Assembly: GCA_964520225.1 (NCBI GenBank)
Contig: CAZFNV010000001.1
Coordinates: 72,210 to 136,209 of the forward strand
DNA length: 64,000 nt
Source: an uncultured Candidatus Saccharibacteria bacterium
GTDB lineage: Bacteria; Patescibacteriota; Minisyncoccia; Phycocordibacterales; UBA9973
Direction: 5' to 3'
Shown here one piece after another: positions 49,088 through 63,468 of the stretch (the first letter of the stretch is position 1; each line of letters starts with the position of its first letter). The notes beneath the pieces were generated by a model. The model saw nothing but the letters and a program-made list of their open reading frames with translations, was not told the origin of the DNA and did not search any database. The position numbers were made by a program, and so were the translations under genes.

Positions 49088-50047
49088 TTGCTACTGTGCA
49101 CTAAAACAGTGTATAATTTCTGTATTAATAAATTATTTTGGGCGAAAAACAAGATAGCTATCTTGGTTGCCTTAGCGGTAATCTTTTTGGCTGGTTTGTT
49201 TTGGAGCAAAAATCAAACTGAGTTTAGTAACCCTGATAATATGAGGGGTCTAGTGTATAGCAACACCCCCCTTGAGGATCTTGTGACTAAAGACACAGAC
49301 GGAGACGGGGTGCTCGATTGGGAAGAAGCACTCTGGGGCACAGACCCAACCAAAACGGATACTGATGGTGACGGGATAACAGACAAAGAAGAAATAGAGG
49401 GGCTCAAGGCAGAGGCGGGCGTGGATCCAGATTCTATAATATTCTCAGCTAACGCAGAAAACCTAACTGAAACTGACAAATTTGCACGCGAACTTTTTAC
49501 CACAGCAGCGGCCCTTAGCCAGGGAGGCGCATTAGATGAAGAGACTATCGACGCAATTGGTAATTCTTTAGCAGAAAACTTTTATACATCGAAACAAAGG
49601 AAAATTTTTACTATAACCGACATAAAGACGATTGATAATGAGAGTAAAGAGACAACCCTAGAATACGGAAAACAGTTGGGCACAATACAAGAAAAATACC
49701 CCCTCGGCAAGGCTGAAGATGTGGCCTTTACATTATTAAACTCCATAACCCCTGAGGGCGAAACTGATGTTGCGGCACTAAACAAACTCGACCCAACAAT
49801 AAACCAGTTGAATAATATAGTGAGAGAACTCGCAATTACAGATACGCCTAGATATATAGCGCCCATGCATCTATTGATTATAAATGAATTTCAGCATCTT
49901 TCTGAAAACATCTCCGATATGAAGAAAATAGAAGATGACCCGGTGGTGGCGTTGGGAGCGATAAATACATATGAAGAGAATTTAAGCGAGATATCTATAT
50001 ACTTAAGACAGCTTTTTATGTTGATAAATATGAAATTGAATAGTTGA
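49088..50047 (+). CDS. Membrane-anchored protein with thrombospondin-type-3-like Ca-binding DxDGDG repeats; first gene of the T4SS-like locus (start uncertain: TTG 49088 or GTG 49109)
   Basis: TM segment IAILVALAVIFLAGLFW followed by DTDGDGVLDWEE and DTDGDGITDKEE. Confidence 0.45.
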   Translation: MLLCTKTVYNFCINKLFWAKNKIAILVALAVIFLAGLFWSKNQTEFSNPDNMRGLVYSNTPLEDLVTKDTDGDGVLDWEEALWGTDPTKTDTDGDGITDKEEIEGLKAEAGVDPDSIIFSANAENLTETDKFARELFTTAAALSQGGALDEETIDAIGNSLAENFYTSKQRKIFTITDIKTIDNESKETTLEYGKQLGTIQEKYPLGKAEDVAFTLLNSITPEGETDVAALNKLDPTINQLNNIVRELAITDTPRYIAPMHLLIINEFQHLSENISDMKKIEDDPVVALGAINTYEENLSEISIYLRQLFMLINMKLNS

Positions 50048-50076
50048 CAATAGCGTTCTATAATTAGAGTAACATT

Positions 50077-51837
50077 ATGCTAAAGAAGCTGATAAAAAAA
50101 TGGAGGGTTGAAAAGTTTATAGCTGGGCTAATGATATGCGCTATCCTCACGCCTGTGTTCGCAACCTTTATGGCACCGCGACAGGTGGAAGCCCAGTATG
50201 TTGACCCCTTTAATGCTGGCGCCTGGATTAAAGATTTGATAAACCAGACATTTAAACAAATAAAAATGCACGTGGGGAGAATACTACTCAACAGGCTCAA
50301 CCAAAGCGTTACGAAATGGATAGCTTCAGGATTCCACGGCAACCCCTTCTACCTAGAGAATTCGAAGTCGTTTTTCAAAGATATAGTTAAATATGAGGTG
50401 AAGAATATAGTAGATACTTATGCATACAATAGGGACAAGTTCCCGTTCGGGCGTAGTTTTGCTTTAAACACAATCTCTGCTTATCAACGCAACCTAGAAG
50501 ACAACACAGCCTACACTCTCAGCCGAGTTATTAATGACCCGGTTTTCCTGGAAAACTATAGAAATGATTTCAATGTGGGTGGATGGGATGGATTCTTCAT
50601 CAACACCCAGTATCCGCAGAACAACTATATAGGCTTTCAGATGCTCGCAACAGAAGAGTTGGCGCGCAAGCTAGACGGAACCGCTCAAACTGCAGCCCAG
50701 AAAGTAAACACTATACTTGAGCAAAGTGGAGGATTTTTAGCTCCGCAGGTATGTGCAGACCCTGGCACAAAATACAACAATGGTAAAAACGAATTCTTGC
50801 AACCAAGATTTGATATGGCAAAATTTGAAAGAGACAATCCTTATAACTGTGATTCCTCTGATTCTCTGGGTTTCGCAATTTGTAATGACCAATGGAACGC
50901 AAAGCTTGAAAAAGAAAAAGCCGACTGGGCGAAAGATAACACTTGTAAAAACTTAGTGACCACGACCCCTGGGAGTGTGGTAGCTAACCAGATAGAAACA
51001 ACCCTGCAATCCAAGATAAGACAAACAGAGCTAGCTGCTGCTATGGGTAACGCTCTGGCAACAGGATTCGGACTTTTGTTAGACAGCCTTCTTCAGAAAG
51101 GCCTGACCAAGTTAGGAGGTGTGCTAGATTCCACGGCAGGCACAGATACGGTTAACCTTAGACCTAATGCTGTAGGGGGAAGTGGGGTAAATGTAGAAAC
51201 GTGCCAGAGCGTGGGCTCAAGCATCGCAACAGGTAACGCATCCGGCTACACCCAAGAAGGCGAGTACCTGAACCTAGACATCGAACTAAACAACTCCGGA
51301 GCAAGCGAATCTTGCACTAGCGTAAGCGTGCCAGGAGGAACACCGCCAGATTTGTCGGAATTTAATCGATACCCCATTCCTGGCGGTGGCAGTGTAGATA
51401 ACCCTCCTCCGGCTGGTGGCTGTGGTGGAGGCGACAACGAACATTGCACCTGTAAAGCCAATAACGATCTAGATGGTTTGGGGCTGGGTATATTCTCGAA
51501 ATACAGAGCGGCTGTGGTGGCAGCGAGAGATGCAGTACATGCTAACCCAAGCCCAGCAGTCGGACTTGATGCCAACGGCAACTTCCTAGGCTATTCATAT
51601 GGTGACACTTATGCTAAAGCCATAGTCTGCGAGCTTCGCAAAGCAGGCTACCTAGCCGACGGAGTGAACGATGAGATAGGTGTGGCGCGAACAGGTGACA
51701 CCTTCCAAGAAAACTTCGATGTATATTCTAGCATCGGGCTCGTCAATGTCCGCTTCATGGCGTTCTGCACCAGCTTAAATGGCGATGGAGCCTACCCAGA
51801 ATTCAGCACTAGCGGCCGAGGATTCACTTGCCAGTAA
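50077..51837 (+). CDS. Secreted hypothetical protein (586 aa) with Cys pairs and Gly/Pro-rich segments
   Basis: Signal peptide IAGLMICAILTPVFATFMAPRQVEAQ. Confidence 0.5.
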   Translation: MLKKLIKKWRVEKFIAGLMICAILTPVFATFMAPRQVEAQYVDPFNAGAWIKDLINQTFKQIKMHVGRILLNRLNQSVTKWIASGFHGNPFYLENSKSFFKDIVKYEVKNIVDTYAYNRDKFPFGRSFALNTISAYQRNLEDNTAYTLSRVINDPVFLENYRNDFNVGGWDGFFINTQYPQNNYIGFQMLATEELARKLDGTAQTAAQKVNTILEQSGGFLAPQVCADPGTKYNNGKNEFLQPRFDMAKFERDNPYNCDSSDSLGFAICNDQWNAKLEKEKADWAKDNTCKNLVTTTPGSVVANQIETTLQSKIRQTELAAAMGNALATGFGLLLDSLLQKGLTKLGGVLDSTAGTDTVNLRPNAVGGSGVNVETCQSVGSSIATGNASGYTQEGEYLNLDIELNNSGASESCTSVSVPGGTPPDLSEFNRYPIPGGGSVDNPPPAGGCGGGDNEHCTCKANNDLDGLGLGIFSKYRAAVVAARDAVHANPSPAVGLDANGNFLGYSYGDTYAKAIVCELRKAGYLADGVNDEIGVARTGDTFQENFDVYSSIGLVNVRFMAFCTSLNGDGAYPEFSTSGRGFTCQ

Positions 51838-51910
51838 GATATTGCTGACAAAGCAATGGGTTATAAAGTGTAAAGTTGAAAATTGTAAGGTTTGTGATAT
51901 AATACAGCAC

Positions 51911-52129
51911 ATGAAATCGCGAAATTTTACAGCCCTATTTAAGAAAGTTGGCAAGTTCTATGCCGCTTGGGTAGAGGAAGTGCCTGGAGTAAACACCCAA
52001 GGCAAAACTCTGAATGAAGCTCGCGAGAATCTAAAAGAAGCTTTGATGTTAGTCCTAGAAACTCAGCGGCACATAGTCCAAAAAGAAGCAGGCGCTGGCT
52101 ATATAAAAAGAGAAGTGCTCTTTGCATAA
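51911..52129 (+). CDS. hicB: HicB-family antitoxin (UPF0150)
   Basis: FTALFKKVGKFYAAWVEEVPGVNTQGKTLNEARENLKEAL. The start is taken at the internal ATG at 51911. Confidence 0.65.
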   Translation: MKSRNFTALFKKVGKFYAAWVEEVPGVNTQGKTLNEARENLKEALMLVLETQRHIVQKEAGAGYIKREVLFA

Positions 52130-52138
52130 AAACCCCTT

Positions 52139-52333
52139 ATGAAACGCACCGACTTAATAACACACCTGAGAAAAAACGGTGTGATCTTTTTGAGAGAGGG
52201 AAATTCTCATAGTGTTTACTATAATCCAGAAAATGGCCGGGCTTCTACCATACCGAGACACTCCGAGATAAACACTTTCACTGGCCGAAAAATCTGTCGA
52301 GACCTTGGTGTACCTTTGATCCAAATGAGGTAA
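52139..52333 (+). CDS. hicA: HicA-family mRNA interferase toxin
   Basis: KRTDLITHLRKNGVIFLREGNSHSVYYNPENGRASTIPRHSEIN...LGV pattern; 9 nt after hicB. Confidence 0.65.
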   Translation: MKRTDLITHLRKNGVIFLREGNSHSVYYNPENGRASTIPRHSEINTFTGRKICRDLGVPLIQMR

Positions 52334-52434
52334 CTTCTATTCAGAAGACACCGAAAAGCAAAAGGCTGTACACTTAAAATAAAAATAGTGTTAAAATAAA
52401 GAGGTGGGTCCCGTAGTAGATTTTTATTACGATT

Positions 52435-52704
52435 ATGTTCTATGTATACATAATTGAAAGTGTAGTCGGGAAAAACTTATATATCGGCTTCACTAAAGAT
52501 CTCAAGAAAAGACTACTGGAACATAATCAAGGGTTAAATTTTTCTACTAAAAGATATGGTAAATGGAACATTATATACTACGAAGCCTGCGCAGAAGAAA
52601 GCGATGCTAGGCGCAGAGAAAAATACCTAAAAACAACACAAGGAGGGAGGTTGAGAAAAAGAAGAATAAAGGATTATTTATATAAATTGAAAAATTTAAC
52701 ATAA
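52435..52704 (+). CDS. Small stand-alone GIY-YIG nuclease domain protein (second copy)
   Basis: FYVYIIESVVGKNLYIGFTKDLKKRLLEHN...EKYLK. Confidence 0.65.
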   Translation: MFYVYIIESVVGKNLYIGFTKDLKKRLLEHNQGLNFSTKRYGKWNIIYYEACAEESDARRREKYLKTTQGGRLRKRRIKDYLYKLKNLT

Positions 52705-52721
52705 TAAAAATTCACTACAGG

Positions 52722-52811
52722 ATGAAAAGGGTCTGGTTAACAATTCCAATATTCGCACTCGTGCTCTTTTTTGCTTTCTTTGGTGGAGTAAGCGATGCGG
52801 GGGCGGAGGAG
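52722..52811 (+). pseudogene. Duplicated 5-prime end (signal-peptide coding, 30 codons and then a stop) of the TrbL/VirB6-like gene. It is about 90% identical to 53446-53530 and forms an ~89-bp direct repeat flanking the NYN gene.
   Basis: MKRVWLTIPIFALVLFFAFFGGVSDAGAEE* compared with MKRYLLTIPIFALVLFFAFFGGVSDAGAQ... in the downstream gene. Confidence 0.6.
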
Positions 52812-52822
52812 TAAAATAAAAA

Positions 52823-53362
52823 ATGGATAAAGAGCAAGCAAAAAACATAGCTTTCATAGATGGCCAAAATTTATATATGGCAACAAAAGAAAGCGTGGAG
52901 CCTTGGTCTGTCGATTTTACTCGTTTTCGTATTTACTTATTACAAAAGTATGGCGTTGAACGTGCGTATTACCATCTGGGATATTTAGATGAAGAAAATC
53001 AAGATTTATACGAACAAATTCAAAATGCAGGATTTATTTTAGTATTTAAAAAACATAATCCTGCTATGATGGGTAAGAAGAAGGGAAACGTCGATTCTGA
53101 CATAATTTTTTCTGCCATGAGACGCGTCTATAAAAAAGAGAATTTCGATAAAGTTATATTTGTTTCAGGAGATGGTGATTATAAGGCTTTGGTAGATTTC
53201 TTGATTGAAGAGAACAGGTTTGCAAAAATACTCTTCCCAAGCAGGAGAAACTATTCGTCTCTATATAAAGCACTATCAAATAATTTTTTCGCTTTCCTAG
53301 ATAATCCAGACACAAAAGATAAAATAGAGCATAAAAAAGAAAAGGGTGCCTTAGGTAATTAA
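52823..53362 (+). CDS. NYN-domain (LabA-like) protein (second copy), lying between the two copies of the TrbL 5-prime repeat
   Basis: IAFIDGQNLY...VIFVSGDGDYKALVDFL. Its SD (GAGGAG) is supplied by the end of the upstream repeat copy. Confidence 0.7.
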   Translation: MDKEQAKNIAFIDGQNLYMATKESVEPWSVDFTRFRIYLLQKYGVERAYYHLGYLDEENQDLYEQIQNAGFILVFKKHNPAMMGKKKGNVDSDIIFSAMRRVYKKENFDKVIFVSGDGDYKALVDFLIEENRFAKILFPSRRNYSSLYKALSNNFFAFLDNPDTKDKIEHKKEKGALGN

Positions 53363-53445: not shown

Positions 53446-55914
53446 ATGAAAAGATACTTGTTAACAATTCCAATATTCGCGCTCGTGCTCTTTTTTGCTT
53501 TCTTTGGCGGAGTAAGCGATGCGGGGGCGCAGACGACAACATCCGCACCGAATGAAGTTGTGGGAACTTGCACGGTAACTTACTATGTAATCGTGGCTGG
53601 TGGTGGAATCTCAAAAATTGGCACACAAACACTACCTAATATGACAGTAAGTGAGTGCGACCTCTTTAAAGAACCGAGCAATGGCAGCATCCCGTCTGTG
53701 GTTGGTGCTAAATATACCACAGCGGTAAATGACCGCATACGCACTAAGCCTGGGGACGTAACACCTACTGGCATAGTGCCAACCAGCAACTCCGAAGATC
53801 CTAACGCCTTTCAAAACAGCATCAACGAGGGATGCCCTAGTATAATAAGAGGCACTCTAACTGGCTGTCTTTTAAAATTTATTTACTATTTTTACTTCCA
53901 ACTACCAACATTCATTTTGTATGTTGCGGCGTATGTTTTTAATATATTAATGTCGCTGGTGATACAAGACTCAATGTATCAGCATGATTTTATTAACAAC
54001 GCATGGAGCGTGGTACGAGATCTTTCAAATGTATTCTTTATATTGATACTACTTTATATCGGAATAAAAACTGTGCTTGGTATGGGCGGACATGAAACAA
54101 AAAAGGTTATTACATCAGTTGTGCTCATGGCGCTACTAATAAACTTTTCGATGTTCTTCACGCGTATTGTGATCGACTCGTCCAACATGCTGGCATTAAT
54201 ATTTTATCGTGAGTTAGACACTAAATATGAAACAGAAACTGGAGAAAAGGTGGAAAGGCCGTTCACATCTGTTACGCCAGGTAAAGAAAAGGACGCAGCG
54301 GGTGCATTATATTCAAAATTTGATGCCACGCGCTTAATGAGACAAGAGGTTGTAAGTCAGATTGGTGCAACTACCGTTAATAGCATACCTGTGCTGGGAA
54401 ATCTAGAAAGCTTTGGAATAAAGTTCGGGATCATTGTTGTTTCAGGAACCATCATGATAGTCGCGGCGTATGTGTTTTTTGTTTCGGGGATTTTCTTCCT
54501 AGGAAGGATTATTGACCTGTGGATACTGATGATCACTGCACCGTTTGCATTTATGTCTTACGCATTACCGAGCCTTGCGCACACAGAATACGGCTGGAGT
54601 AAGTGGACCGAGAAGCTAATTTCAGTAGCATTTATGGCCCCGGCGTTTATGTTTTTCTTGTATTTAATATTTTTAATACTTGGAACGAAAAATTTCTTTA
54701 GTGGCTTCATAGACCCTAGCAACACATCGTGGATTGGAATACTTATGGGGATATTCCTTCCCGCGGCAATAATTCTTGGCTTACTACTAAAAGCAAAAGA
54801 CTTAGCCAAAAAGGCTGGAGGACAATTTGGAGAGACCGTTATGTCGGGAGCTAAATTGGCGGGAGGTCTTGCGCTTGGCGCTACTGGCGCCGGAGTGGCA
54901 GCTTTGGGAACTAGATATGTTGGAGGCGCTGCAATGAAAACTCTCGCCGACAAAGGGTTACGAGAAAGGGCGCTGAGTGGAGACACTGCTGCTCAAAAAG
55001 AGATAGAGCGAGCGGGAAGAAATGTGAATAGAAGTTTCGACTTCCGCGACACCAAGCTAGGTAAATTTGTGGCCGATAAATCTGGTGTCAAATTTACTGA
55101 AGGAAGAATATCTTCCATGCTGGGTCTTGATACTCATGCATTTGAAGGCGGAATAGCCGGACAAATCAAGCATGCCAAAGAGCATGAGGAGAAAAATATA
55201 AAAGCATATATGCTGAGCGCGGGCGAAGCTAATGAGCAAGACACAAAGGCTGAGATTGCAAATAAGGAAATAGAAGAGAGGCAGAAACAATACAACAAGG
55301 AACTCAAGAAGGCAAGAGAGACAGACCCACTATTGGATGAAGATAAATTCAAAGAAGAATTTGTTAAAAACAACGGTAGCCTAGAGAAAGTGGCGACAGC
55401 GAAAGATATTAATGACGATATAAAGAGAAGATACTTTGCTCAGAAAGAAAGCCACCACGACGCAGAGGGATTAAAGGCGGCAATGAAAGATTTAGTAAAG
55501 GCATTAAAAACAACAGGTAAGGCGTCTGGGGCAGGTATGGCAGGATCAGCGGCAATGGGGGCTTATACCGGAGGCGCCGCTGGGGCTCTTGGTGCAGTAA
55601 CAGTAACTGGGGCTGTGCTTGGAACCGGTATACCGATAGCAGGTGGAATGTTCTTGAAAAAATTGAAAAATGTCTTGAAGAACGAAGGCGCTATACATGC
55701 CTACGGATTAGCAGAAGCAAAGAGACCGAAAAGCAATAAAGAGAAATTAGCGGAAGCAGTTAAAGAACTAGGACTTGATAATAAGAAAGAGAGTCATGGA
55801 GGCGGTGGTGGGCACGCACCGTCACATTCCGCACCGCCACACAAAGAAGAATCTCATGGTCCAACTGGAGGCGACCACGGCAGTGGAGGAGATCATGGTA
55901 ATGGCCATAACTAA
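53446..55914 (+). CDS. TrbL/VirB6-like polytopic membrane protein of the T4SS-like system, with a secreted N-terminal domain and a Gly/Ala/His-rich C-terminal tail
   Basis: Signal peptide followed by ~6-7 TM helices in the TrbL-like arrangement (FILYVAAYVFNIL..., LILLYIGIKTVLG, VVLMALLINFSMFF, IVVSGTIMIVAAYVFFVSGIFFLG, WILMITAPFAFMSYAL, FMAPAFMFFLYLIFLILG). The start is taken at the ATG at 53446; leaderless after TATAAT. Confidence 0.6.
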   Translation: MKRYLLTIPIFALVLFFAFFGGVSDAGAQTTTSAPNEVVGTCTVTYYVIVAGGGISKIGTQTLPNMTVSECDLFKEPSNGSIPSVVGAKYTTAVNDRIRTKPGDVTPTGIVPTSNSEDPNAFQNSINEGCPSIIRGTLTGCLLKFIYYFYFQLPTFILYVAAYVFNILMSLVIQDSMYQHDFINNAWSVVRDLSNVFFILILLYIGIKTVLGMGGHETKKVITSVVLMALLINFSMFFTRIVIDSSNMLALIFYRELDTKYETETGEKVERPFTSVTPGKEKDAAGALYSKFDATRLMRQEVVSQIGATTVNSIPVLGNLESFGIKFGIIVVSGTIMIVAAYVFFVSGIFFLGRIIDLWILMITAPFAFMSYALPSLAHTEYGWSKWTEKLISVAFMAPAFMFFLYLIFLILGTKNFFSGFIDPSNTSWIGILMGIFLPAAIILGLLLKAKDLAKKAGGQFGETVMSGAKLAGGLALGATGAGVAALGTRYVGGAAMKTLADKGLRERALSGDTAAQKEIERAGRNVNRSFDFRDTKLGKFVADKSGVKFTEGRISSMLGLDTHAFEGGIAGQIKHAKEHEEKNIKAYMLSAGEANEQDTKAEIANKEIEERQKQYNKELKKARETDPLLDEDKFKEEFVKNNGSLEKVATAKDINDDIKRRYFAQKESHHDAEGLKAAMKDLVKALKTTGKASGAGMAGSAAMGAYTGGAAGALGAVTVTGAVLGTGIPIAGGMFLKKLKNVLKNEGAIHAYGLAEAKRPKSNKEKLAEAVKELGLDNKKESHGGGGGHAPSHSAPPHKEESHGPTGGDHGSGGDHGNGHN

Positions 55915-56899: not shown

Positions 56900-57259
56900 A
56901 TGAAGACTTACCAAGACTTGATAGTTTGGAAGAAATCTATAGAGCTAGTAATCGCTATATATAGCCTTACGGATAAATTCCCAAGAGAAGAAATATTTGG
57001 CATAACTTCACAAATCCGCCGAGCAGCAGTATCAATACCTTCAAATATCGCTGAAGGTAAAATGCGTGGCGGAAATATAGAATTAAAAAGGTTTCTGCTG
57101 ATCGCTTTTGCTTCGGGCGCGGAACTCGAAACTCAGCTTATAATAGCTAGAAAATTACCTAAAATGGTAAATTTAGATTATAATAAAGTGGATCCTCTTT
57201 TAAATGAGGTTATGAGGATGTTAAATAAAATGATTACTCAGCTAGAGCCTAAAGCCTAG
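56900..57259 (+). CDS. Four-helix-bundle protein of the 23S rRNA intervening-sequence protein family
   Basis: YQDLIVWKKSIELVIAIYSLTDKFPREEIFGITSQIRRAAVSIPSNIAEG...ASGAELETQLIIARKL closely matches the family consensus as I remember it. Confidence 0.8.
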   Translation: MKTYQDLIVWKKSIELVIAIYSLTDKFPREEIFGITSQIRRAAVSIPSNIAEGKMRGGNIELKRFLLIAFASGAELETQLIIARKLPKMVNLDYNKVDPLLNEVMRMLNKMITQLEPKA

Positions 57260-57276: not shown

Positions 57277-57696
57277 ATGCAATTTAAAGTTCCACAATTT
57301 TTGGATATAGAAGATAAAATTTTCGGACCATTTACTTTCCGAGAATTTGTATACCTCGCTGGTGGGGCAGGGCTGTGTTTCGTACTTTACCGCTTGCTCG
57401 GGCTATATGGTGGAGCAATACCAATAATAATCATAGCCGGATTTTCTTTAGCCTTAGCATTTTACAAACCCAACAATAAGCCATTTATAGAAATGCTACA
57501 AGCAGGGAGTAAATATATGCTACAGAGCAAGTTGTACATATGGCAGAGGAGACAAGAAGAGAGGAAAAGGCCACGCATAGAGAACACCGCCAACACCAGC
57601 ACGGAAGGTCGTAACCCCAGACTAACTGGAAGCAAGCTCCGCGACCTAGCCTGGAGCCTAGATGTATTAGATATGGAACAACATAAACACAGCTAA
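57277..57696 (+). CDS. PrgI-like (VirB3-like) small membrane protein of the T4SS-like system
   Basis: N-terminal VPQFLDIEDKIFGPFTFREFVYL followed by two TM segments; it lies immediately upstream of VirB4. Confidence 0.5.
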   Translation: MQFKVPQFLDIEDKIFGPFTFREFVYLAGGAGLCFVLYRLLGLYGGAIPIIIIAGFSLALAFYKPNNKPFIEMLQAGSKYMLQSKLYIWQRRQEERKRPRIENTANTSTEGRNPRLTGSKLRDLAWSLDVLDMEQHKHS

Positions 57697-57701
57697 TAAA
57701 C

Positions 57702-58340
57702 ATGGCCTTAAGCGCAAAGAGAACTCAAGAGTTTGTGCCTATCCGCGAAATCCGTGACGGTATCGTGGTCTTGAAAGATGACAGCCTGCGTGCACTAGTA
57801 CTCGCGAACTCAGTCAATCTATCTTTAAAATCTGCTGATGAGCAAAAAGCCACGATCCTCCAATTCCAAAACTTTCTAAACACTCTGGACTTTCCGGTTC
57901 AGATATCTGTGCAATCCAGGCGCCTCGACATAGGTCCATACTTGATGCTACTCGAAAACCGACTCAAGGTGCAGACCGAGCCTCTACTCAAACTTCAGAC
58001 CAAAGAATACATCGAATTTATAAAGAATTTCACCGAGTCGGTAAGCATAATGACAAAGAGCTTTTTTATAGTGGTACCCTATACTCATGTAAACATACCA
58101 AAACCAAGCGGTGGAATGTTCAGCTTCTTCTCACGACCTAGTGCTGACGAAAAACGCATGAACGAGAAAGCTGAGTTTGAAGAGAAACGTTCCCAGCTTG
58201 AGCAAAGAGTGGGCGTAATACAAAGCGGGCTCGGTAGATGTGGAATAAAGTCTGTCCAGCTAGGCACTGAAGAGGTGATAGAAGTGTTTTACAAAGTTTT
58301 CAACCCGGGACAGACAGAAGGGCATATTAAGTTGGAGTAG
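57702..58340 (+). CDS. VirB4/PrgJ-like ATPase, N-terminal domain fragment (the gene is split; continues at 58376)
   Basis: EFVPIREIRDGIVVLKDDSLRALVLANSVNLSLKSADEQKATILQFQNFLNTLDFPVQI matches the VirB4 N-domain pattern. Confidence 0.6.
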   Translation: MALSAKRTQEFVPIREIRDGIVVLKDDSLRALVLANSVNLSLKSADEQKATILQFQNFLNTLDFPVQISVQSRRLDIGPYLMLLENRLKVQTEPLLKLQTKEYIEFIKNFTESVSIMTKSFFIVVPYTHVNIPKPSGGMFSFFSRPSADEKRMNEKAEFEEKRSQLEQRVGVIQSGLGRCGIKSVQLGTEEVIEVFYKVFNPGQTEGHIKLE

Positions 58341-58375: not shown

Positions 58376-60214
58376 ATGGGGATACTTGATAAAATTTTAG
58401 GAAGAAAGCCAATAGACGACACATTAAATGCGTCCACTTTAGCCGTTCTGCCGGAAGAAATATATGAATCGGCGAATCTCGAGCTTCAAGACGTCATAGC
58501 TCCCTCTGCGCTGAAAATTGATTCGAAATCCATCAACCTGGGGGACAAAATAGCCCGCACATTTTTCATAATTTCTTATCCTAGATTCCTAACCGACAAC
58601 TGGTTCTCGCCAGTTATTAACTTGGATAAGGTTTTTGATATCTCCATATTCATCCACCCTATAGACACCTCACTGGTATTGCGACAATTCCAGAAAAAAG
58701 TGGCCGAGGTGCAAAGTCAGATCAATGTTCGAGAGGCGAAAGGAATGGTACGCGACCCAATGCTCGACACGGCATATCAGGATCTCGAAAGTCTGCGCGA
58801 CAACTTAATTCAGGCCCAAGAAAAAATGTTCGATGTGGGTGTGTATATCACCATATACGCAGACAGCGAGCTAGAATTATTCAAAATCGAGACAGAGATC
58901 AAGTCTATGCTCGAAGCTAAACTTATCTATATAAAACCAGCCCTTTTCCAGCAAGAAGACGGCTTCAAGAGTGTGATGCCTACCAACACTGACATTTTAA
59001 ACATCAACCAGAAACTTAATTCTGAACCTTTGTCTAGTATATTTCCATTTGTATCTTTCGACCTCACTTCTGACAAAGGAATACTCTACGGGGTAAATAG
59101 ACACAACTCTAGTTTGGTCATATTCGACCGTTTTTCATTAGAAAATTACAACTCTATTATTTTTGCCAAGTCCGGCTCTGGTAAATCATATACTACAAAG
59201 TTAGAAATACTGCGCAGTCTAATGTTCGATATTGATGTCATGGTGATAGACCCAGAACGCGAATACGAATTCCTGTCCGAAGCTGTGGGTGGGAGGTATT
59301 TCAACATCTCTATTTCATCAGATCACCATATGAATCCTTTCGACCTGCCGATACCTCGCGAAGACGAAACAGCAGAGGACGTGCTCCGCTCTAATATCAT
59401 TAGCCTAGTCGGTCTCTTTCGCATAATGCTCGGAGGGCTAACACCAGAGGAAGACTCTATGATAGACCGCGCCATCTCAGAAACATACGCGATGAAGGAC
59501 ATCACTCCTGATTCAGATTTCCGCAACATAGAACCGCCCCTGCTTTCCGACTTTGAAATGGTGCTCGGGGGTATGGAGGGAAGTGAATCTTTGCTCTCGC
59601 GTCTGACTAAATACACGCGTGGTTCTTGGGCAACATTCCTCAACCGACCGTCCAATGTGGATATTGATAAAAAATTCGTAGTGTTCTCAATCCGCGACAT
59701 GGAAGACGAGCTCAAACCGGTAGCTATGTATATCATCATGCACTACATCTGGAACGCTGTCCGTAAAAACCTGAAGAAGCGCCTCTTGGTGGTGGATGAG
59801 GCTTGGTGGATGATGAAGTCGGAGGACACGGCATCTTTCCTATACTCCATAGCTAAACGCGGAAGAAAATATTATCTAGGCCTGGCCACTATTACTCAAG
59901 ATGCGGCTGACTTTATGAACTCTCCATACGGGGTACCGATAATTACCAACTCTTCCATCCAAATATTACTGAAGCAGTCAGCAACGACCATTGATGTACT
60001 CCAGAGAACCTTCAACCTTACAGATGAAGAAAAATATCTATTATTGGAATCAAACGTAGGAGAGGGTATATTCTTCGCCGGCACTAAACACGTAGCAATA
60101 AAGATGATCGCTTCCTACACCGAAGACCAGATAATAACCTCCGACCCATCCCAAATACTATCTACTCGTAAAGCAAAAGAAGAACACGAGGAAGTAGAAA
60201 TGAACTCCAGGTAG
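58376..60214 (+). CDS. VirB4/TrbE-like T4SS ATPase, C-terminal ATPase part
   Basis: Walker A AKSGSGKS, Walker B LLVVDEAWWMM and the TITQDAADF region. Confidence 0.75.
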   Translation: MGILDKILGRKPIDDTLNASTLAVLPEEIYESANLELQDVIAPSALKIDSKSINLGDKIARTFFIISYPRFLTDNWFSPVINLDKVFDISIFIHPIDTSLVLRQFQKKVAEVQSQINVREAKGMVRDPMLDTAYQDLESLRDNLIQAQEKMFDVGVYITIYADSELELFKIETEIKSMLEAKLIYIKPALFQQEDGFKSVMPTNTDILNINQKLNSEPLSSIFPFVSFDLTSDKGILYGVNRHNSSLVIFDRFSLENYNSIIFAKSGSGKSYTTKLEILRSLMFDIDVMVIDPEREYEFLSEAVGGRYFNISISSDHHMNPFDLPIPREDETAEDVLRSNIISLVGLFRIMLGGLTPEEDSMIDRAISETYAMKDITPDSDFRNIEPPLLSDFEMVLGGMEGSESLLSRLTKYTRGSWATFLNRPSNVDIDKKFVVFSIRDMEDELKPVAMYIIMHYIWNAVRKNLKKRLLVVDEAWWMMKSEDTASFLYSIAKRGRKYYLGLATITQDAADFMNSPYGVPIITNSSIQILLKQSATTIDVLQRTFNLTDEEKYLLLESNVGEGIFFAGTKHVAIKMIASYTEDQIITSDPSQILSTRKAKEEHEEVEMNSR

Positions 60215-60250: not shown

Positions 60251-61255
60251 ATGAATATAGATTATTCTAAATCTTTCGTGCTAAAAATTTTCTTTATGCT
60301 CGTGGCCTTCGGAGGCTCGTATATGTTGAGCGGTTTTTATACGCACGCACAAATCGTAAGTGATGTTTATATAGCTACGATACCAGAAAATCCAGAGCCA
60401 GGAGAAGATGTAACGGTACAAGTAAGTAGTTACACTATCAATGTGGACGGCACACTGATAACCTGGTATGAAAATGGTAAACGAGTTTCCTCGGGGATTG
60501 GACTTAAGTCTCACTCAATGAAGGCTCCAGACTCAGGCAAAGAAACAACCGTTGTAGCAAGACTAGAGACGCTGGAAGATAGTGTTGATGTGTCAGTGGT
60601 AATTCGTCCTTCAGTGATGGTAATACTATGGGAAACTAGTGATTCATATGTGCCCCCTTTCTATAAAGGCAAGGCATTGCTGACTGCAGACAGCGCCGTG
60701 AAGATAGTGGCGATGCCAGAGATAGGCCAAGGAAGCACGCGAGTTAACCCGAAAAATATGGTTTACTCTTGGCGCAAGGATTATAGTAACGACCAGGAAG
60801 CCTCTGGCTATGGTAAAAATTATTTTATTTACACTAGCGACTATCTAGACCCATCGAGCTTCATAGAGGTATCAGCAACCACGGTGGCTGGAGATAAAAC
60901 ATCTTCTGGGGGGACAAATATAGGTACCTACCAACCAAAAGTTCTGTTTTATAAAGTTGATGAAGCACTAGGCACACTCTTTGAAAATGCACTAAAAAGT
61001 GGACACAGAATTGTAAATAAGGAAGTTGTGTTTGTGGCCCCGTATTTTATTTCACCGAGAGACTTGAGAATTCCGAGACTCGACTGGTCTTGGTATATTA
61101 ATGATTCCAGGATAATAAACGAGAACATCCAGCCAAACATCATCCCTCTACAAGTAGAGAGTGGTGTGTCCGGGATGTCTAAACTTAGAATTTTAATAGA
61201 GCACAGAGATAAATTAACCCAAACAGCAAATGGTGAAATACAGTTTGAATTCTAA
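60251..61255 (+). CDS. Secreted or membrane-anchored hypothetical protein
   Basis: N-terminal hydrophobic segment FVLKIFFMLVAFGGSYMLSGF. Confidence 0.45.
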   Translation: MNIDYSKSFVLKIFFMLVAFGGSYMLSGFYTHAQIVSDVYIATIPENPEPGEDVTVQVSSYTINVDGTLITWYENGKRVSSGIGLKSHSMKAPDSGKETTVVARLETLEDSVDVSVVIRPSVMVILWETSDSYVPPFYKGKALLTADSAVKIVAMPEIGQGSTRVNPKNMVYSWRKDYSNDQEASGYGKNYFIYTSDYLDPSSFIEVSATTVAGDKTSSGGTNIGTYQPKVLFYKVDEALGTLFENALKSGHRIVNKEVVFVAPYFISPRDLRIPRLDWSWYINDSRIINENIQPNIIPLQVESGVSGMSKLRILIEHRDKLTQTANGEIQFEF

Positions 61256-61256
61256 A

Positions 61257-62138
61257 ATGCGAAAATATATTTTATACATACTAATACTAGCAACATTTGT
61301 TGGGATATTCGGCCCAGTGGCGCGCATAGAAGCGCAAGGGGGGACAAGTGAGCCTTATAAACTACTTGCACCACTACCTTGTTCTAAGGACACACCGGGA
61401 TGCGAAAGCGGAAAACTGACAACATTTAACCCCACAAATGAAAATGGTTCTGCTTTAGGTAGCTATCTAAACCTTATAGTTCAGCTAGTTATAGGGATAT
61501 CCGCAATACTAGCTGTGGTTATGATAGTAATGGGAGGTATAGAATATATGGGTAGCGAGCTTATATCCAGTAAGGAGGCGGGAAAAGACAGGATTAAGGA
61601 CGCACTACTCGGGCTCTTGATAGCCCTCGGTGCATACGCACTATTGAACACAATCAACCCGAGTTTATTGAAAAGTAATATAAATATTCCTGATGCAAAG
61701 GTTACAGTAGTGGTAGACGATAGCGTGCCCCAGACACCAGTGGGCGGAAAATATAAAAACGGCATAGCGGAAAATACCCCCCTGACAGGCACTCCGACAC
61801 CATTACCACCAGGGGTTACTCTTAACGCAGCACAATGTACTTTCGTTGGACAGCGAGGATGCACGTCTACTATTGGCCTCAATATGAGTCAGGTGCAAGC
61901 AATACAGCGAGGATGTAATTGTAATATTGTTATAACTGGTGGTACAGAGTGGTGGCTACACGGAGGACAATCTGGCAGCACAACACACCAAAATGGTAGT
62001 TCAACTGTAGACTTAAGACCAAACCCTCAATTAAACGCATATCTCAGTGGGGGAAAACCTTTAGTACTAAACTCTCGATATCCTCCACCAAATGGACCTT
62101 ATTATTGGGAAGGAGATCATTGGCACATTGGCAGGTAA
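61257..62138 (+). CDS. Pilin-like (VirB2/TrbC-like) protein: a signal peptide, two hydrophobic helices and a Cys-containing C-terminal extension
   Basis: MRKYILYILILATFVGIFGPVARIEAQ signal, followed by LNLIVQLVIGISAILAVVMIVMGGIEY and ALLGLLIALGAYALL. The start is taken at the ATG at 61257. Confidence 0.45.
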   Translation: MRKYILYILILATFVGIFGPVARIEAQGGTSEPYKLLAPLPCSKDTPGCESGKLTTFNPTNENGSALGSYLNLIVQLVIGISAILAVVMIVMGGIEYMGSELISSKEAGKDRIKDALLGLLIALGAYALLNTINPSLLKSNINIPDAKVTVVVDDSVPQTPVGGKYKNGIAENTPLTGTPTPLPPGVTLNAAQCTFVGQRGCTSTIGLNMSQVQAIQRGCNCNIVITGGTEWWLHGGQSGSTTHQNGSSTVDLRPNPQLNAYLSGGKPLVLNSRYPPPNGPYYWEGDHWHIGR

Positions 62139-62148
62139 TTAAATTTTT

Positions 62149-63468
62149 ATGTCGCAAAGAAACTTTACACTTTTCATAATAACTCTCATCTTGGTAGTAG
62201 CCGGTATTTTTGGATTTTTATATTTTTATCAAGGTCAGAACCAGCAGCCAGGGGAGGGTGGTGGTACAAATTTCTTGTCTAGATTCAACCCTTTCGGTCA
62301 AAGTAACCCCGTAACCCCGACCCCAGAAGAGCCTATAGACATATCCGAACCAGAAACTCCGACTCTGGAAGTGCCACAACTACCAAGCAAGCTCACCCAG
62401 ATATCATCTGTGCCGGTGGCAGGTTATGAGATACTGATGCGAGAACGCCTGAAAGAGATGGTAGAAGTAGCGCCGAGTGAAGCCACACCCGCAACGTCCT
62501 CAACCTCAAAACCAGTAGCGCCTGCTACTGAATTAGTAACCAGCACACGTTATGTAGACCGAGCATCTGGCAATATTTATCAAACTTTCCTAGATCAAGT
62601 AGCTGAGAGACGATTCTCCACTACCACCATACCGAAGGTGTATGAGGCATATTTTGGCAATAAAAACTCTTCCGTAATACTGCGCTATTTAAAGACTGAC
62701 AACAAGACAATCCAGACATTCCAGGGCGCTGTGCCTAAGGAAATACTGGGCGCGGATGCAATGGAAAACGAGCTCACAGGCACCTTCCTACCAGAGGGAA
62801 TTACTGAAATGAGTATTTCGCCAGATGGAAGCAAGATGTTTTATTTGGTTAACGTTGGCGATGTAAGCGTCGGAACAACTTTAAACTTTGCGGACAATAA
62901 AAAAACGCAGATATTTGATTCGCCATTTACTGAATGGTTAGTACAATGGCCAAGCACTAATTTAATCACCCTCAATACTAAACCTTCAGCGTTTATAGAG
63001 GGCCATATGTATTCCTTAAATCCAACAAGTAAAAGCTTTAGTAGAACCCTGGGGGGCGTACTAGGGCTCACGACCCTCACTAGCCCGAGTGGTAAATCGG
63101 TGCTTTATGGCGACAGTAGCTTGTCTTTGAATATTTTAAGTATAGACAAAAACACCAGAACCCCAGCGGGCGTCCGAACACTACCAGAGAAGTGTGTGTG
63201 GGGTAGCGACAGCATAACCCTATACTGCGCTGTGCCAGTATTTCTAGAAGTAGGGCAGTACCCTGACAGCTGGTATCAAGGTGAAGTTTCATTCGCAGAT
63301 CAAATATGGAAAATAGACACAGTAAATGGGACCACTGATCTTATAATAGATACAACTCTGGACGGGAAAAACATAGATGCTATTAAGCTCGCACTAGATA
63401 AAGACAATAAATATATATTGTTTGTAAACAAAAAAGACTCTATGCTCTGGAAGCTGGATTTGGAATAG
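62149..63468 (+). CDS. Membrane-anchored hypothetical protein (439 aa) with a beta-rich ectodomain
   Basis: TM segment FTLFIITLILVVAGIFGFLYFY. Confidence 0.45.
   Translation: MSQRNFTLFIITLILVVAGIFGFLYFYQGQNQQPGEGGGTNFLSRFNPFGQSNPVTPTPEEPIDISEPETPTLEVPQLPSKLTQISSVPVAGYEILMRERLKEMVEVAPSEATPATSSTSKPVAPATELVTSTRYVDRASGNIYQTFLDQVAERRFSTTTIPKVYEAYFGNKNSSVILRYLKTDNKTIQTFQGAVPKEILGADAMENELTGTFLPEGITEMSISPDGSKMFYLVNVGDVSVGTTLNFADNKKTQIFDSPFTEWLVQWPSTNLITLNTKPSAFIEGHMYSLNPTSKSFSRTLGGVLGLTTLTSPSGKSVLYGDSSLSLNILSIDKNTRTPAGVRTLPEKCVWGSDSITLYCAVPVFLEVGQYPDSWYQGEVSFADQIWKIDTVNGTTDLIIDTTLDGKNIDAIKLALDKDNKYILFVNKKDSMLWKLDLE

What the first reader, a model, noticed from the sequence alone, without database searches (positions are those of the whole stretch)
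49088..63468. T4SS-like envelope locus (TrbL/VirB6-like, PrgI-like, VirB4, pilin-like, several secreted proteins) interrupted by selfish cassettes
Contiguous same-strand genes encode a TSP3-repeat anchor protein, a large secreted protein, a TrbL-like 6-7-TM protein with a secreted N-domain, a PrgI/VirB3-like protein, VirB4 (Walker A and B), a two-helix pilin-like protein, and three further secreted or anchored proteins. No VirD4, VirB11 or relaxase is present in the window. Similar reduced VirB4/VirB6 modules in Patescibacteria are thought to mediate DNA uptake or host attachment; the accessory secreted proteins here are all uncharacterised.
Basis: partly seen in the sequence, partly recalled or inferred. 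Interest (0 to 1): 0.6.

Follow-up and report, generated by a model that had tools for sequence, protein, structure and literature searches.

The report
Patescibacterial type IV secretion gene cluster
This is the chromosomal type IV secretion gene cluster typical of ultra-small Patescibacteria, a system already described in 2023-2025; the one detail that seems new is that its single 'pilin' gene is fused to a cell-wall-cutting enzyme domain, which relatives replace with other wall-active enzyme domains.

Summary
Between ksgA and jag-yidC-rnpA lies a same-strand cluster: TSP3 anchor protein, 586-aa surface protein, VirB6-like polytopic protein, cytoplasmic 312-aa protein, PrgI/VirB3, TrsD-like VirB4 N-domain, VirB4 ATPase, 334-aa Ig-like protein, pilin-like protein and a 439-aa anchored protein. 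HicAB, GIY-YIG, NYN and 23S-IVP genes interrupt it. No VirD4, VirB11 or relaxase was found in the window. Gene order is conserved in 80 Paceibacteria/Nomurabacteria genomes, and the selfish genes are absent or elsewhere in most of them. VirB4 is 75-90% identical across these genomes, more conserved than neighbouring housekeeping genes. This is the MPF-FATA-derived Patescibacteria T4SS of Quinonero-Coronel et al. 2025 and Wang et al. 2023, so it is a new member of a known kind.

Two corrections apply. VirB4 is split into two genes. The VirB6-like protein fits no TrbL/VirB6 Pfam model, only Mycoplasma ICE transmembrane families.

One addition: the "pilin" is a VirB2-like membrane hairpin fused to a C-terminal domain with an LAS (hedgehog/DD-peptidase) fold and invariant His/Asp/His-x-His. 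At the same position relatives carry NlpC/P60, VanY/M15, SLT, amidase, CHAP or YkuD domains. I read it as the system's wall-active VirB1 analogue.

The parts
49088..50047 (+). N-terminally anchored protein with bacterial TSP3 (Ca-binding) repeats. The ORF tool gives GTG 49028; TTG 49088 directly follows the ksgA stop.
   Evidence: PF18884 TSP3_bac E 2.2e-8. One TM segment. Found upstream of the cluster in 34 of 80 loci, which is every locus with enough upstream DNA.
50077..51837 (+). 586-aa surface protein: N-terminal anchor or signal, a conserved N-domain (about residues 50-350) and a variable Cys-rich C-terminal part.
   Evidence: No Pfam or NCBIfam hit for the window protein. It has 277 homologues. 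Their C-terminal parts carry T2SS-T3SS_pil_N (12 of 46), Ig_NUP210 (6) and SprB (3). DUF4141 hits 3 of 46, best 6.7e-5. Syntenic in 41 of 80 loci.
51779..53362 (+). Inserted selfish genes: hicB (probable start 51911) to 52129, hicA 52139-52333, GIY-YIG nuclease 52435-52704, NYN nuclease 52823-53362.
   Evidence: Pfam hits. Absent from nearly all syntenic loci: 0, 0, 2 and 1 of 80. A promoter-like site lies at 51876-51903.
53446..55914 (+). Extended VirB6-like polytopic membrane protein: signal or TM segment, a Cys-containing outer N-domain, seven TM segments (162-455) and a long hydrophilic C-terminal tail with a His/Gly-rich end.
   Evidence: TM scan. NCBIfam NF045848 E 1.6e-3 over the full profile. 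Of the homologues, 19 of 50 hit NF045848 (best 9.5e-9) and 8 of 50 hit NF045889. No Pfam TrbL/VirB6 hit. Syntenic in 64 of 80 loci.
55920..56858 (+). Cytoplasmic 312-aa protein: two copies of a helical domain of about 95 aa, a low-complexity linker and an invariant C-terminal DPYRE motif. Role unknown, possibly an adaptor.
   Evidence: No TM segment. No family hit. Alignment of 24 homologues. Syntenic in 49 of 80 loci.
56900..57259 (+). Inserted 23S-rRNA-intervening-sequence (four-helix bundle) protein gene.
   Evidence: PF05635 E 2.7e-34. Present in 13 of 80 loci at different positions.
57277..57696 (+). PrgI / VirB3-like small membrane protein.
   Evidence: PF12666, 38.9 bits against a cut-off of 27. 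Found in 76 of 80 loci, median identity 58%.
57702..58340 (+). TrsD-like protein, equivalent to the N-terminal domain of VirB4 encoded as a separate gene.
   Evidence: NF045975 N-part E 2.7e-8, CD1110 positions 2-102, and TrsD. PF26593 TraC-like is on record for the identical protein. Double stop codon, then the VirB4 ATG in another frame. Found in 80 of 80 loci, median identity 70%.
58376..60214 (+). VirB4 ATPase (C-terminal two thirds of a canonical VirB4) with Walker A and B motifs.
   Evidence: NF045971, 365.9 bits against a cut-off of 325, profile positions 181-734 of 752. P-loop_TraG 4.6e-27. 75-90% identity to 80 genomes.
60251..61255 (+). 334-aa anchored or secreted protein that is beta-rich and Ig-like.
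   Evidence: One N-terminal hydrophobic segment. Only weak Ig/PKD-type hits across 29 homologues. Found in 75 of 80 loci.
61230..62138 (+). Signal peptide, a VirB2-like two-helix hairpin (residues about 75-141) and a C-terminal LAS-fold domain (about 150-302). It is a probable hairpin-anchored peptidoglycan peptidase. The likely true start is 61272.
62149..63468 (+). 439-aa N-terminally anchored protein with a Pro-rich linker and a probable beta-propeller-like ectodomain.
   Evidence: One TM segment. Scattered weak beta-propeller hits. Two of 29 homologues carry PG_binding_1, best E 5.3e-11. Found in 69 of 80 loci.
48313..49086 (+). ksgA/rsmA, the upstream chromosomal flank (not part of the machine).
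   Evidence: Recognised by eye from the translation, not profile-tested. Conserved flank in 24 loci. The paper lists KsgA among the commonest virB4 neighbours.
63491..63982 (-). jag (R3H), the downstream chromosomal flank. yidC and rnpA follow on the source contig.
   Evidence: PF01424. L081 shows R3H, 60KD_IMP and Ribonuclease_P downstream.

Best explanation
The locus is the vertically inherited, origin-proximal type IV secretion system of a Paceibacteria (Nomurabacteria-like) patescibacterium. The system derives from the monoderm MPF-FATA conjugation machinery but has no relaxase or coupling protein in the locus.

Shown here:
- A membrane core of a VirB6-like polytopic protein, PrgI/VirB3, and a VirB4 split into a TrsD-like N-domain protein and the ATPase.
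- A single VirB2-like hairpin protein whose C-terminus carries an LAS-fold domain.
- Four more anchored or secreted proteins and one cytoplasmic protein, kept in fixed order across at least 60 species.
- Small selfish genes (HicAB, GIY-YIG, NYN, IVP) that have inserted between the T4SS genes.

Inferred:
- VirB4 with TrsD powers assembly or transport through the VirB6/VirB3 channel.
- The hairpin places the LAS domain on the outer face of the membrane. There it cuts peptide stems of peptidoglycan, either to let the machine cross the cell's own wall (the VirB1 role) or to breach the host's wall.
- The fast-evolving surface proteins (TSP3 protein, 586-aa, 334-aa and 439-aa proteins) form the extracellular part and the host contact.
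- The machine serves the host-dependent lifestyle, through protein export or another contact-dependent exchange, and not conjugation.
For: Family placements: PrgI above its cut-off. VirB4 CD1110 family above its cut-off, and TrsD/VirB4 N-part hits. TraC-like Pfam on record for the identical 212-aa protein. T4SS_pilin in 47 of 47 and TrbC in 37 of 47 homologues. Mycoplasma ICE TM families in 19 and 8 of 50 VirB6-like homologues.

Synteny: the order TSP3, 586-aa, VirB6-like, 312-aa, PrgI, TrsD, VirB4, 334-aa, hairpin protein, 439-aa, jag recurs in 80 Paceibacteria-type genomes.

Conservation: VirB4 has median 83% identity and TrsD 70%, against ksgA 55%, uvrD 61% and jag 53% in the same loci.

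Chromosomal context: ksgA lies upstream and jag-yidC-rnpA downstream, as published for this system (PMC12102498).

Missing conjugation parts: no other P-loop ATPase in 64 kb, and no relaxase found.

Function: T4SS genes, including PrgI, TrsD, VirB6 and the pilins, are essential for epibiotic growth in Southlakia epibionticum (PMC10633639; PMC12102498).

Nearest plasmid relatives: monoderm CD1110-type VirB4 at 28-36% identity.
Against: - No experiment exists for any Paceibacteria T4SS. The essentiality data come from Saccharimonadia, a different class with short pilin arrays.
- The VirB6 assignment rests on weak hits. The window protein scores E 1.6e-3, far below the curated cut-off, and has no Pfam or PDB sequence match.
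- Metal-site geometry could not be inspected.
- A VirD4 homologue may exist elsewhere in the genome; the paper reports many distant T4CP genes.
- The substrate is unknown.
Confidence: 0.8

Rival explanations
1. It is an integrated conjugative element, or a decaying remnant of one, and the T4SS moves DNA between cells.
For: The components are homologous to MPF-FATA conjugation proteins of Firmicutes, Actinobacteria and Mycoplasma ICEs. Mobile-type genes (HicAB, GIY-YIG, NYN) sit inside the cluster.
Against: No relaxase, T4CP or integrase lies in or next to the cluster. The chromosomal site is identical, between ksgA and jag-yidC-rnpA, in dozens of species. VirB4 is more conserved than housekeeping neighbours, which is the opposite of decay. 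The mobile-type genes are absent from most orthologous loci. Only 109 relaxases were found in the 103 Patescibacteria genomes that carry one, in a genome set holding 2,474 virB4 genes.
Confidence: 0.05
2. It is a DNA-uptake (competence) machine analogous to the Helicobacter ComB T4SS. It would import DNA as a source of genes or nucleotides.
For: There is no relaxase or T4CP, as in ComB. Patescibacteria cannot make nucleotides. In the ABY1 class the T4SS loci co-localise with comF, recG and radA. A ComM-like gene lies in the window at 11930-13480.
Against: In S. epibionticum, competence needs type IV pili and ComEC. Deleting comEC abolishes transformation but not viability, whereas the T4SS is essential. 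The ComM-like gene is 45 kb away and is not part of the conserved synteny. Nothing in the locus binds or processes DNA.
Confidence: 0.1
3. The hairpin-hydrolase protein is a true VirB2 pilin. It polymerises into a pilus that displays the enzyme domain, or the domain is cleaved off at the conserved PQTP linker.
For: The hairpin matches T4SS_pilin and TrbC/VirB2 models. Patescibacteria are proposed to build VirB2 pili. In the solved F-pilus structure the pilin N-terminus faces outward (from my own knowledge). A conserved D-x-PQTP linker separates the two domains.
Against: No known VirB2 pilin carries a C-terminal enzyme of 150-450 aa (from my own knowledge and the reviews read). In the nearest conjugative relative examined, the hairpin protein and the hydrolase are separate genes. 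Membrane-anchored hydrolases are the rule for monoderm VirB1 analogues.
Confidence: 0.2
4. The secreted and anchored accessory genes are ordinary envelope or cell-wall maintenance genes that merely sit next to a minimal VirB3/VirB4/VirB6 module.
For: None of the TSP3, 586-aa, 334-aa or 439-aa proteins hits a T4SS family. The region near the origin is rich in housekeeping genes.
Against: Their order relative to virB4 is kept across 34-75 of 80 loci while the surrounding genes vary. The hydrolase domain is physically fused to a T4SS-specific hairpin. Some 586-aa homologues give DUF4141 hits, a family I recall from Bacteroidetes conjugative transposons; that link was not tested here.
Confidence: 0.1

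Closest known systems
Patescibacteria-clade T4SS (Quinonero-Coronel et al. 2025, PMC12102498; Wang et al. 2023, PMC10633639; McLean et al. 2020, PMC7427843)
   Same: The component set is the same: VirB4 with an adjacent TrsD, PrgI/VirB3, VirB6-like and a PF18895 VirB2-like protein. There is no relaxase or T4CP nearby. The location is chromosomal, near ksgA and rnpA and therefore near the origin. The RAAC4_OD1 orthologue of the hairpin gene is listed as 'VirB2' in that paper's Table S3 and is my locus L060.
   Different: The published text treats the PF18895 proteins as pilins and states that most genomes with VirB2 lack VirB1. Here, and in 71 related loci, the single VirB2-like gene itself carries a wall-active enzyme domain. 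Saccharimonadia have arrays of short pilins instead.
CD1110/CTn2-type MPF-FATA conjugation modules of Firmicutes (example: C. perfringens pSXP-169_2, L082)
   Same: VirB4 is of the CD1110 family, above the curated cut-off, at 28-36% identity. Both share the order TM protein, PrgI, VirB4, then a wall hydrolase downstream.
   Different: The plasmid also has MobC, a relaxase, DUF3801 and VirD4. Its VirB4 is unsplit at 783 aa. Its 125-aa hairpin-like protein and its 850-aa SLT hydrolase are separate genes.
pGO1/pSK41-type T4SS (TrsD + TrsE)
   Same: A separate small protein homologous to the VirB4 N-terminus is encoded just upstream of virB4 (NF041427 TrsD hit; paper).
   Different: The TrsD hit is weak (E 7e-3). 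According to the paper, the pGO1 subclass lacks a recognisable VirB6, whereas this locus has a VirB6-like protein.
Mycoplasma ICE transfer proteins (Mbov_0395 pilin-like, Mbov_0396/MMCAP2_0566 TM proteins, Mbov_0397 VirB4)
   Same: The hairpin protein, the polytopic protein and both VirB4 parts all give their only or best NCBIfam hits to this set.
   Different: All scores fall far below the curated cut-offs. Mycoplasmas have no cell wall, and no hydrolase fusion is expected there (my inference).
Monoderm VirB1 analogues (PrgK, TraG of pIP501, CwlT, TcpG) and LAS/M15 peptidases (VanY, VanX, MepA, Ply500, Shh-N fold)
   Same: The architecture is a membrane anchor plus a peptidoglycan hydrolase encoded beside virB4. 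The C-domain has the hedgehog/DD-peptidase fold with conserved His, Asp and His-x-His.
   Different: The anchor is a VirB2-like hairpin and not a single TM helix. The window's domain matches no Pfam M15 model. The His-Asp spacing is one residue longer than in the VanY motif, and hhalign against VanY-type relatives was not significant.

Membership tests
Patescibacteria-clade T4SS (MPF-FATA-derived) | VirB4 ATPase related to MPF-FATA VirB4 | tested here: met
   NF045971 CD1110 family, 365.9 bits against a cut-off of 325. 75-90% identity to 80 Paceibacteria/Nomurabacteria MAG loci. No phylogenetic tree was built.
Patescibacteria-clade T4SS (MPF-FATA-derived) | TrsD homologue (VirB4 N-domain-like) encoded next to virB4 | tested here: met
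   The 212-aa protein hits the VirB4_plasma N-part at 2.7e-8 and TrsD at 7e-3. TraC-like Pfam is on record for the identical protein. It is a separate gene in 80 of 80 loci.
Patescibacteria-clade T4SS (MPF-FATA-derived) | PrgI/VirB3 homologue | tested here: met
   PF12666, 38.9 bits against a cut-off of 27.
Patescibacteria-clade T4SS (MPF-FATA-derived) | No relaxase and no T4CP in the cluster | tested here: met
   Only three Walker-A ORFs exist in the window. No relaxase Pfam hit in the ten largest other ORFs. Fourteen mid-size ORFs were read by eye only. The rest of the genome was not seen.
Patescibacteria-clade T4SS (MPF-FATA-derived) | Chromosomal, near origin-linked genes (ksgA, rnpA, dnaA) | tested here: met
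   ksgA is upstream. jag, yidC and rnpA are downstream. dnaA itself was not seen.
TrbL/VirB6 (Pfam PF04610 and relatives) | Match to the family profile | tested here: not met
   No Pfam hit for the window protein or for any of 50 homologues at E up to 1. No PDB VirB6 sequence match.
TrbL/VirB6 (Pfam PF04610 and relatives) | Polytopic protein with five or more TM helices encoded beside VirB3/VirB4, with or without large hydrophilic domains ('extended VirB6') | tested here: met
   Seven TM segments between residues 162 and 455, plus a hydrophilic tail of about 360 aa. It lies two genes upstream of PrgI. Homologues hit Mycoplasma ICE TM families. This shows it works like a VirB6; it does not show family membership.
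VirB2/TrbC/T4SS_pilin | Signal peptide followed by a two-helix hydrophobic hairpin that matches the profile | tested here: met
   The window protein scores 25.0 bits against a cut-off of 26.6. 47 of 47 homologues match, best 5.9e-11. AF2 places helices at 75-108 and 112-141.
VirB2/TrbC/T4SS_pilin | Small protein (about 70-120 aa when mature) that polymerises into a pilus | tested here: not met
   Size: the ORF is 302 aa (about 288 from the likely start) and orthologues are 183-733 aa, with enzyme domains. Polymerisation cannot be tested with these tools.
LAS / MEROPS M15-type zinc peptidases | Hedgehog/DD-peptidase fold | tested here: met
LAS / MEROPS M15-type zinc peptidases | Conserved His, Asp and His zinc ligands (H-x(n)-D and H-x-H or E-x-x-H) | tested here: inconclusive
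   H253-x7-D261 and E294-x2-H297-W-H299 are invariant in 47 sequences. The best hhalign stretch aligns TSHxxGSxTVD with the VanY motif SxHxxGxAxD, but not significantly. The 3D clustering of these residues could not be inspected.
LAS / MEROPS M15-type zinc peptidases | Match to a curated M15 profile | tested here: not met
   No Peptidase_M15 or VanY hit in any of 47 members at E up to 5.
Conjugative T4SS (ICE or plasmid) | Relaxase, oriT and coupling protein associated with the mating-pair-formation genes | tested here: not met
   oriT was not searched.

The most novel reading that the evidence does not exclude
In Paceibacteria the single 'VirB2 pilin' of the T4SS is not a pilus subunit. It is the membrane-hairpin carrier of an interchangeable peptidoglycan-active head. 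The heads seen are the new LAS-like domain found here, VanY/M15, NlpC/P60, SLT, amidases and YkuD. This head would be the missing VirB1 of the patescibacterial T4SS, or a weapon that opens the host's wall at the contact site. Its frequent swapping between close relatives, while VirB4 stays above 75% identical, would then track the wall chemistry of different hosts.
Probability: 0.4. Interest if true: 0.6.

Novelty: new member of a known kind. Interest (0 to 1): 0.38.

Why it matters
The cluster itself adds one more example to a system already catalogued across thousands of Patescibacteria genomes, so it does not change the picture.

Two points are useful to people working on that system.

First, in the Paceibacteria-type loci examined here (80 genomes) the complete conserved module has eleven genes. 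Five are anchored, secreted or cytoplasmic proteins that no T4SS profile recognises. These are the obvious candidates for the unknown outer parts of the machine.

Second, the gene counted as 'VirB2 pilin' in this class is a fusion with a wall-active enzyme domain that differs between relatives. This offers a candidate for the 'missing VirB1'. It questions whether these bacteria build VirB2 pili at all. It also gives a simple biochemical handle, muralytic activity and specificity, on how these epibionts cross or open cell walls.

Tried and rejected
- PDB sequence searches found nothing meaningful. They covered the hairpin protein, the VirB6-like protein, and the 439-aa, 586-aa and 334-aa proteins.
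- Pfam scans of 50 VirB6-like homologues gave no TrbL/VirB6 hit.
- Pfam scans of the 439-aa and 334-aa families gave only scattered beta-propeller and Ig-like hints.
- hhalign of the LAS-like domain against the VanY-type domains of relatives was not significant.
- My narrow hairpin HMM did not detect the 125-aa hairpin-like protein or the SLT hydrolase of the C. perfringens plasmid, so the claim that they are separate genes rests on annotation and inspection of one example.
- Promoter and terminator scans were at background level.
- The idea that the TrsD/VirB4 split is a frameshift artefact was rejected. There is a double stop codon, the split occurs in 80 of 80 loci, and IVP genes are inserted between the two genes in L068, L069 and L077.
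- The idea that the cluster is a mobile element was rejected on synteny and conservation.

Full report
**What is there**

The + strand from 49.0 to 63.5 kb carries a tight row of ORFs. Profile searches give the following.
- A TSP3-repeat anchor protein (PF18884, E 2.2e-8).
- A 586-aa protein with an N-terminal hydrophobic segment and no family hit.
- HicB-like/HicA, GIY-YIG and NYN genes (HicB-like is 26.2 bits, just under its cut-off).
- An 829-aa polytopic protein (822 aa from the likely ATG). It has a signal or TM segment, seven TM segments between residues 162 and 455, and a hydrophilic tail of about 360 aa.
- A cytoplasmic 312-aa protein.
- A 23S-rRNA-IVP gene, and PrgI at 38.9 bits against a cut-off of 27.
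- A 212-aa protein matching the N-terminal part of VirB4 models and TrsD. PF26593 TraC-like is on record for the identical sequence.
- A 612-aa VirB4 ATPase. It scores 365.9 bits on NF045971 (CD1110 family) against a cut-off of 325, aligned to profile positions 181-734. Walker A and B motifs are visible.
- A 334-aa protein with a signal or anchor.
- A 302-aa protein with a T4SS_pilin/TrbC hairpin.
- A 439-aa anchored protein.

The flanks are ksgA upstream (recognised by eye) and jag on the minus strand downstream. yidC and rnpA follow on the source contig.

**VirB4 is a true split gene**

The TrsD-like ORF ends in TAG TAG. The ATPase starts 35 nt later in another frame. The split is present in all 80 related loci. 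In L068, L069 and L077 an IVP gene sits between the two halves.

**No partner ATPases or relaxase**

Only three ORFs of 150 aa or more in the whole 64 kb carry a Walker A motif: VirB4, UvrD/PcrA and a ComM-like protein. This excludes VirD4 and VirB11. The ten largest remaining ORFs are housekeeping genes or lack any hit. Fourteen mid-size ORFs, read by eye, look like NusA, trigger factor, SerRS, Xth, XerC/D and similar (not profile-tested).

**Who carries it, and is the arrangement real**

VirB4 finds 594 relatives in the species-representative genome collection. The best 80 are 75-90% identical. All are MAGs labelled Nomurabacteria, Paceibacterota, Parcubacteria, Kaiserbacteria or Wolfebacteria, or 'Saccharibacteria' as named by automated pipelines.

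A tblastn of every window protein against these loci gave hits in the following numbers of loci.

| Protein | Loci with a hit (of 80) |
|---|---|
| TrsD | 80 |
| VirB4 | 80 |
| PrgI | 76 |
| 334-aa protein | 75 |
| Hairpin protein | 72 |
| 439-aa protein | 69 |
| VirB6-like | 64 |
| jag | 59 |
| 312-aa protein | 49 |
| 586-aa protein | 41 |
| TSP3 protein | 34 |

The shortfalls are largely explained by contig ends and by sequence divergence. Gene order is the same almost everywhere.

The selfish genes are not part of this synteny. HicA and HicB occur in 0 loci, NYN in 1, GIY-YIG in 2 (in L006 at another position) and IVP in 13 at various positions. The 'interrupted by selfish cassettes' statement is therefore correct.

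Median identities across these loci are as follows.

| Gene | Median identity |
|---|---|
| VirB4 | 83% |
| TrsD | 70% |
| PrgI | 58% |
| uvrD (housekeeping) | 61% |
| ksgA (housekeeping) | 55% |
| jag (housekeeping) | 53% |
| Envelope-exposed proteins | 28-43% |

The loci were picked by VirB4 similarity, which biases the VirB4 figure upward. Even so, the cytoplasmic motor is under unusually strong constraint, while the surface parts evolve fast.

**Comparison with what is known**

This is the system described by Quinonero-Coronel et al. 2025 (PMC12102498). That paper reports:
- a Patescibacteria-specific VirB4 clade sister to MPF-FATA;
- TrsD as the most frequent partner;
- PrgI/VirB3, VirB6 and PF18895 or TrbC 'VirB2-like pilins';
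- very few relaxases, and T4CP genes usually far from virB4;
- a location near dnaA, dnaN, rnpA, rpmH and ksgA in Paceibacteria.

Their Table S3 lists the RAAC4_OD1 genes in the same order (TrsD, VirB4, one gene, VirB2). That genome is my locus L060.

In Southlakia epibionticum the T4SS genes are essential for growth on the host. No coupling protein or relaxase is recognisable there. The authors suggest protein export or another role instead of DNA transfer (PMC10633639). The comEC knockout is viable (PMC12857230).

The nearest plasmid VirB4 proteins are CD1110-type proteins of Streptomyces, Bacillales and Clostridium, at 28-36% identity. In C. perfringens pSXP-169_2 the module reads MobC, relaxase, DUF3801, VirD4, a 125-aa hairpin-like protein, a 264-aa TM protein, PrgI, an unsplit 783-aa VirB4, and an 850-aa SLT hydrolase. 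This shows what the patescibacterial locus has lost and what it has kept.

**The VirB6-like protein**

The window protein and 50 homologues give no Pfam TrbL/VirB6 hit, and there is no PDB sequence hit.

It does belong with conjugal-transfer TM proteins. Of 50 homologues, 19 hit NF045848 (MMCAP2_0566 family, best 9.5e-9) and 8 hit NF045889 (Mbov_0396 ICE TM protein, best 5.8e-6). The window protein aligns over the whole NF045848 profile at E 1.6e-3.

With its topology and position, it works like an 'extended VirB6' as defined in PMC12857230. Membership in VirB6 proper is not shown.

**The 'pilin'**

The hairpin is well supported. All 47 aligned homologues hit T4SS_pilin and 37 hit TrbC/VirB2.

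The protein continues for about 150 residues after the hairpin. Within that stretch C203, C211-T-S, C229, G238-T, W242, H244, H253, D261, E294 and H297-W-H299 are invariant. No Pfam model matches it.

The strongest support comes from the genes at the same position in relatives. In 71 related loci that gene is always one ORF of 183-733 aa.
- Thirteen carry the same LAS-like domain.
- Among the other 58, 53 hit T4SS_pilin. Their C-terminal parts hit NlpC/P60 (13), VanY (9), Amidase_5 (6), YkuD (5), Peptidase_M15_4 (3), SLT_2 (3), SLT (2), CHAP (2), Amidase_2 (1), SLT_4 and Extensin-like_C. These counts may overlap within a protein.

Explicit examples:

| Locus | Hairpin (T4SS_pilin) | C-terminal enzyme domain |
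|---|---|---|
| L060 (RAAC4_OD1) | 203-271 | YkuD 339-467 |
| L022 | 211-274 | Peptidase_M15_4 376-439 |
| L017 | 188-249 | NlpC/P60 330-432 |
| L070 | 290-356 | Amidase_2 434-585 |
| L002 | 224-285 | VanY 346-448 |

Most of these are peptidoglycan hydrolases; YkuD is an L,D-transpeptidase domain, so 'wall-active' is the safer collective term.

A profile of the LAS-like domain finds 1,237 cluster representatives at E of 1e-3 or better among 1.84 billion. The domain nearly always lies at the C-terminus, after 140 or more residues.

I therefore read this gene as a VirB2-like membrane hairpin carrying an exchangeable wall-active head. It would be the functional counterpart of the membrane-anchored VirB1 analogues of monoderm T4SSs.

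The published main text does not mention this fusion. It states that most genomes with VirB2 lack VirB1. My literature searches found no description of it, though the library is not exhaustive.

**Other accessory proteins**

- 586-aa family: a conserved N-domain, with C-terminal parts that vary. These include pilus-N/Ig-like and SprB repeats. Three of 46 members hit DUF4141, and one NCBI record bears that name. This points to a surface or adhesin role.
- 334-aa family: only weak Ig/PKD-like hits.
- 439-aa family: weak beta-propeller hints, and two members carry PG_binding_1.
- 312-aa family: cytoplasmic, with one or two helical domains of about 95 aa and an invariant C-terminal DPYRE motif.

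Their roles remain inferred from position and conservation only.

**Mechanism, and how sure I am**

*Shown:* the component families, the split VirB4, fixed synteny at an origin-proximal chromosomal site, the lack of relaxase, T4CP and VirB11 in 64 kb, and the hairpin-enzyme fusion with its domain swapping.

*Inferred:*
- VirB4 with TrsD docks on PrgI and the VirB6-like channel.
- The hairpin puts the enzyme outside the membrane. The conserved cysteines and the known VirB2 topology suggest this.
- The variable surface proteins contact the host.
- The machine supports the host-dependent lifestyle and not conjugation, by analogy with Southlakia.

I put 0.8 on the identity and general role of the locus. 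I put about 0.7 on the C-terminal domain being a peptidoglycan peptidase. I put about 0.4 on the stronger claim that the hairpin protein is an anchor or weapon carrier and not a pilus subunit.

**Verdict**

This is a correct and careful first-stage call on a system already in the literature. It is a new member of a known kind. Its modest added value lies in the eleven-gene conserved module and the VirB2-hairpin/wall-enzyme fusion.

Noticed in passing
window 37975-40959: This is a GC-rich island (53-58% GC against about 42% elsewhere). It holds two paralogous + strand genes (37975-39420 and 39697-40959) for secreted or TM proteins with coiled-coil tails. Neither has a Pfam hit. It may be a foreign insertion.
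   Followed up: partly
window 55920-56858 and homologues in L002-L069: The cytoplasmic 312-aa protein family has one or two copies of a helical domain of about 95 aa. Its C-terminal D-P-Y-(R/H)-E motif is essentially invariant: D-P-Y in 24 of 24 homologues, and R/H-E in 23 of them (L066 has DPYLE). This looks like a docking peptide.
   Followed up: partly
L068, L069, L077 (between trsD and virB4); window 56900-57259: 23S-rRNA-IVP (four-helix bundle) genes occupy different intergenic slots of the T4SS cluster in 13 of 80 genomes. One slot is the gap between the two VirB4 halves.
   Followed up: partly
window 58376-60214 compared with 48313-49086 and 43596-45770: VirB4 (median 83% identity) and TrsD (70%) are better conserved across the 80 genomes than the neighbouring housekeeping genes ksgA (55%), uvrD (61%) and jag (53%).
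   Followed up: yes
window 51876-51903: This is the best sigma-70-like site of the region (11 of 12 matches, with an extended -10 TG). It lies just upstream of the internal ATG (51911) of hicB, inside the 3' end of the 586-aa gene. That fits a self-contained toxin-antitoxin insertion.
   Followed up: no
window 41130-43577: An 815-aa protein with a long acidic, Pro/Thr/Glu-rich low-complexity middle part. It has no Pfam hit and lies directly upstream of uvrD/pcrA.
   Followed up: no
window 46715-48310 and 45783-46628: A 14-TM protein (531 aa) lies next to a polyprenyl-synthase-like gene. Both sit between uvrD and ksgA in the window but are absent from that position in all 80 related loci.
   Followed up: partly
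window 14187-15182; 27873-28868; 23671-25350: Read by eye only: a secreted LysM plus M23 (LytM-type) peptidase, a XerC/D-like tyrosine recombinase, and a 559-aa Cys-rich protein with no Pfam hit.
   Followed up: no
L002:12869-14224: One orthologue of the hairpin protein carries a CBM_10 carbohydrate-binding module (residues 137-163) in the outer N-terminal part ahead of the hairpin, as well as VanY at the C-terminus. Both ends of the hairpin can therefore carry extracellular modules.
   Followed up: no
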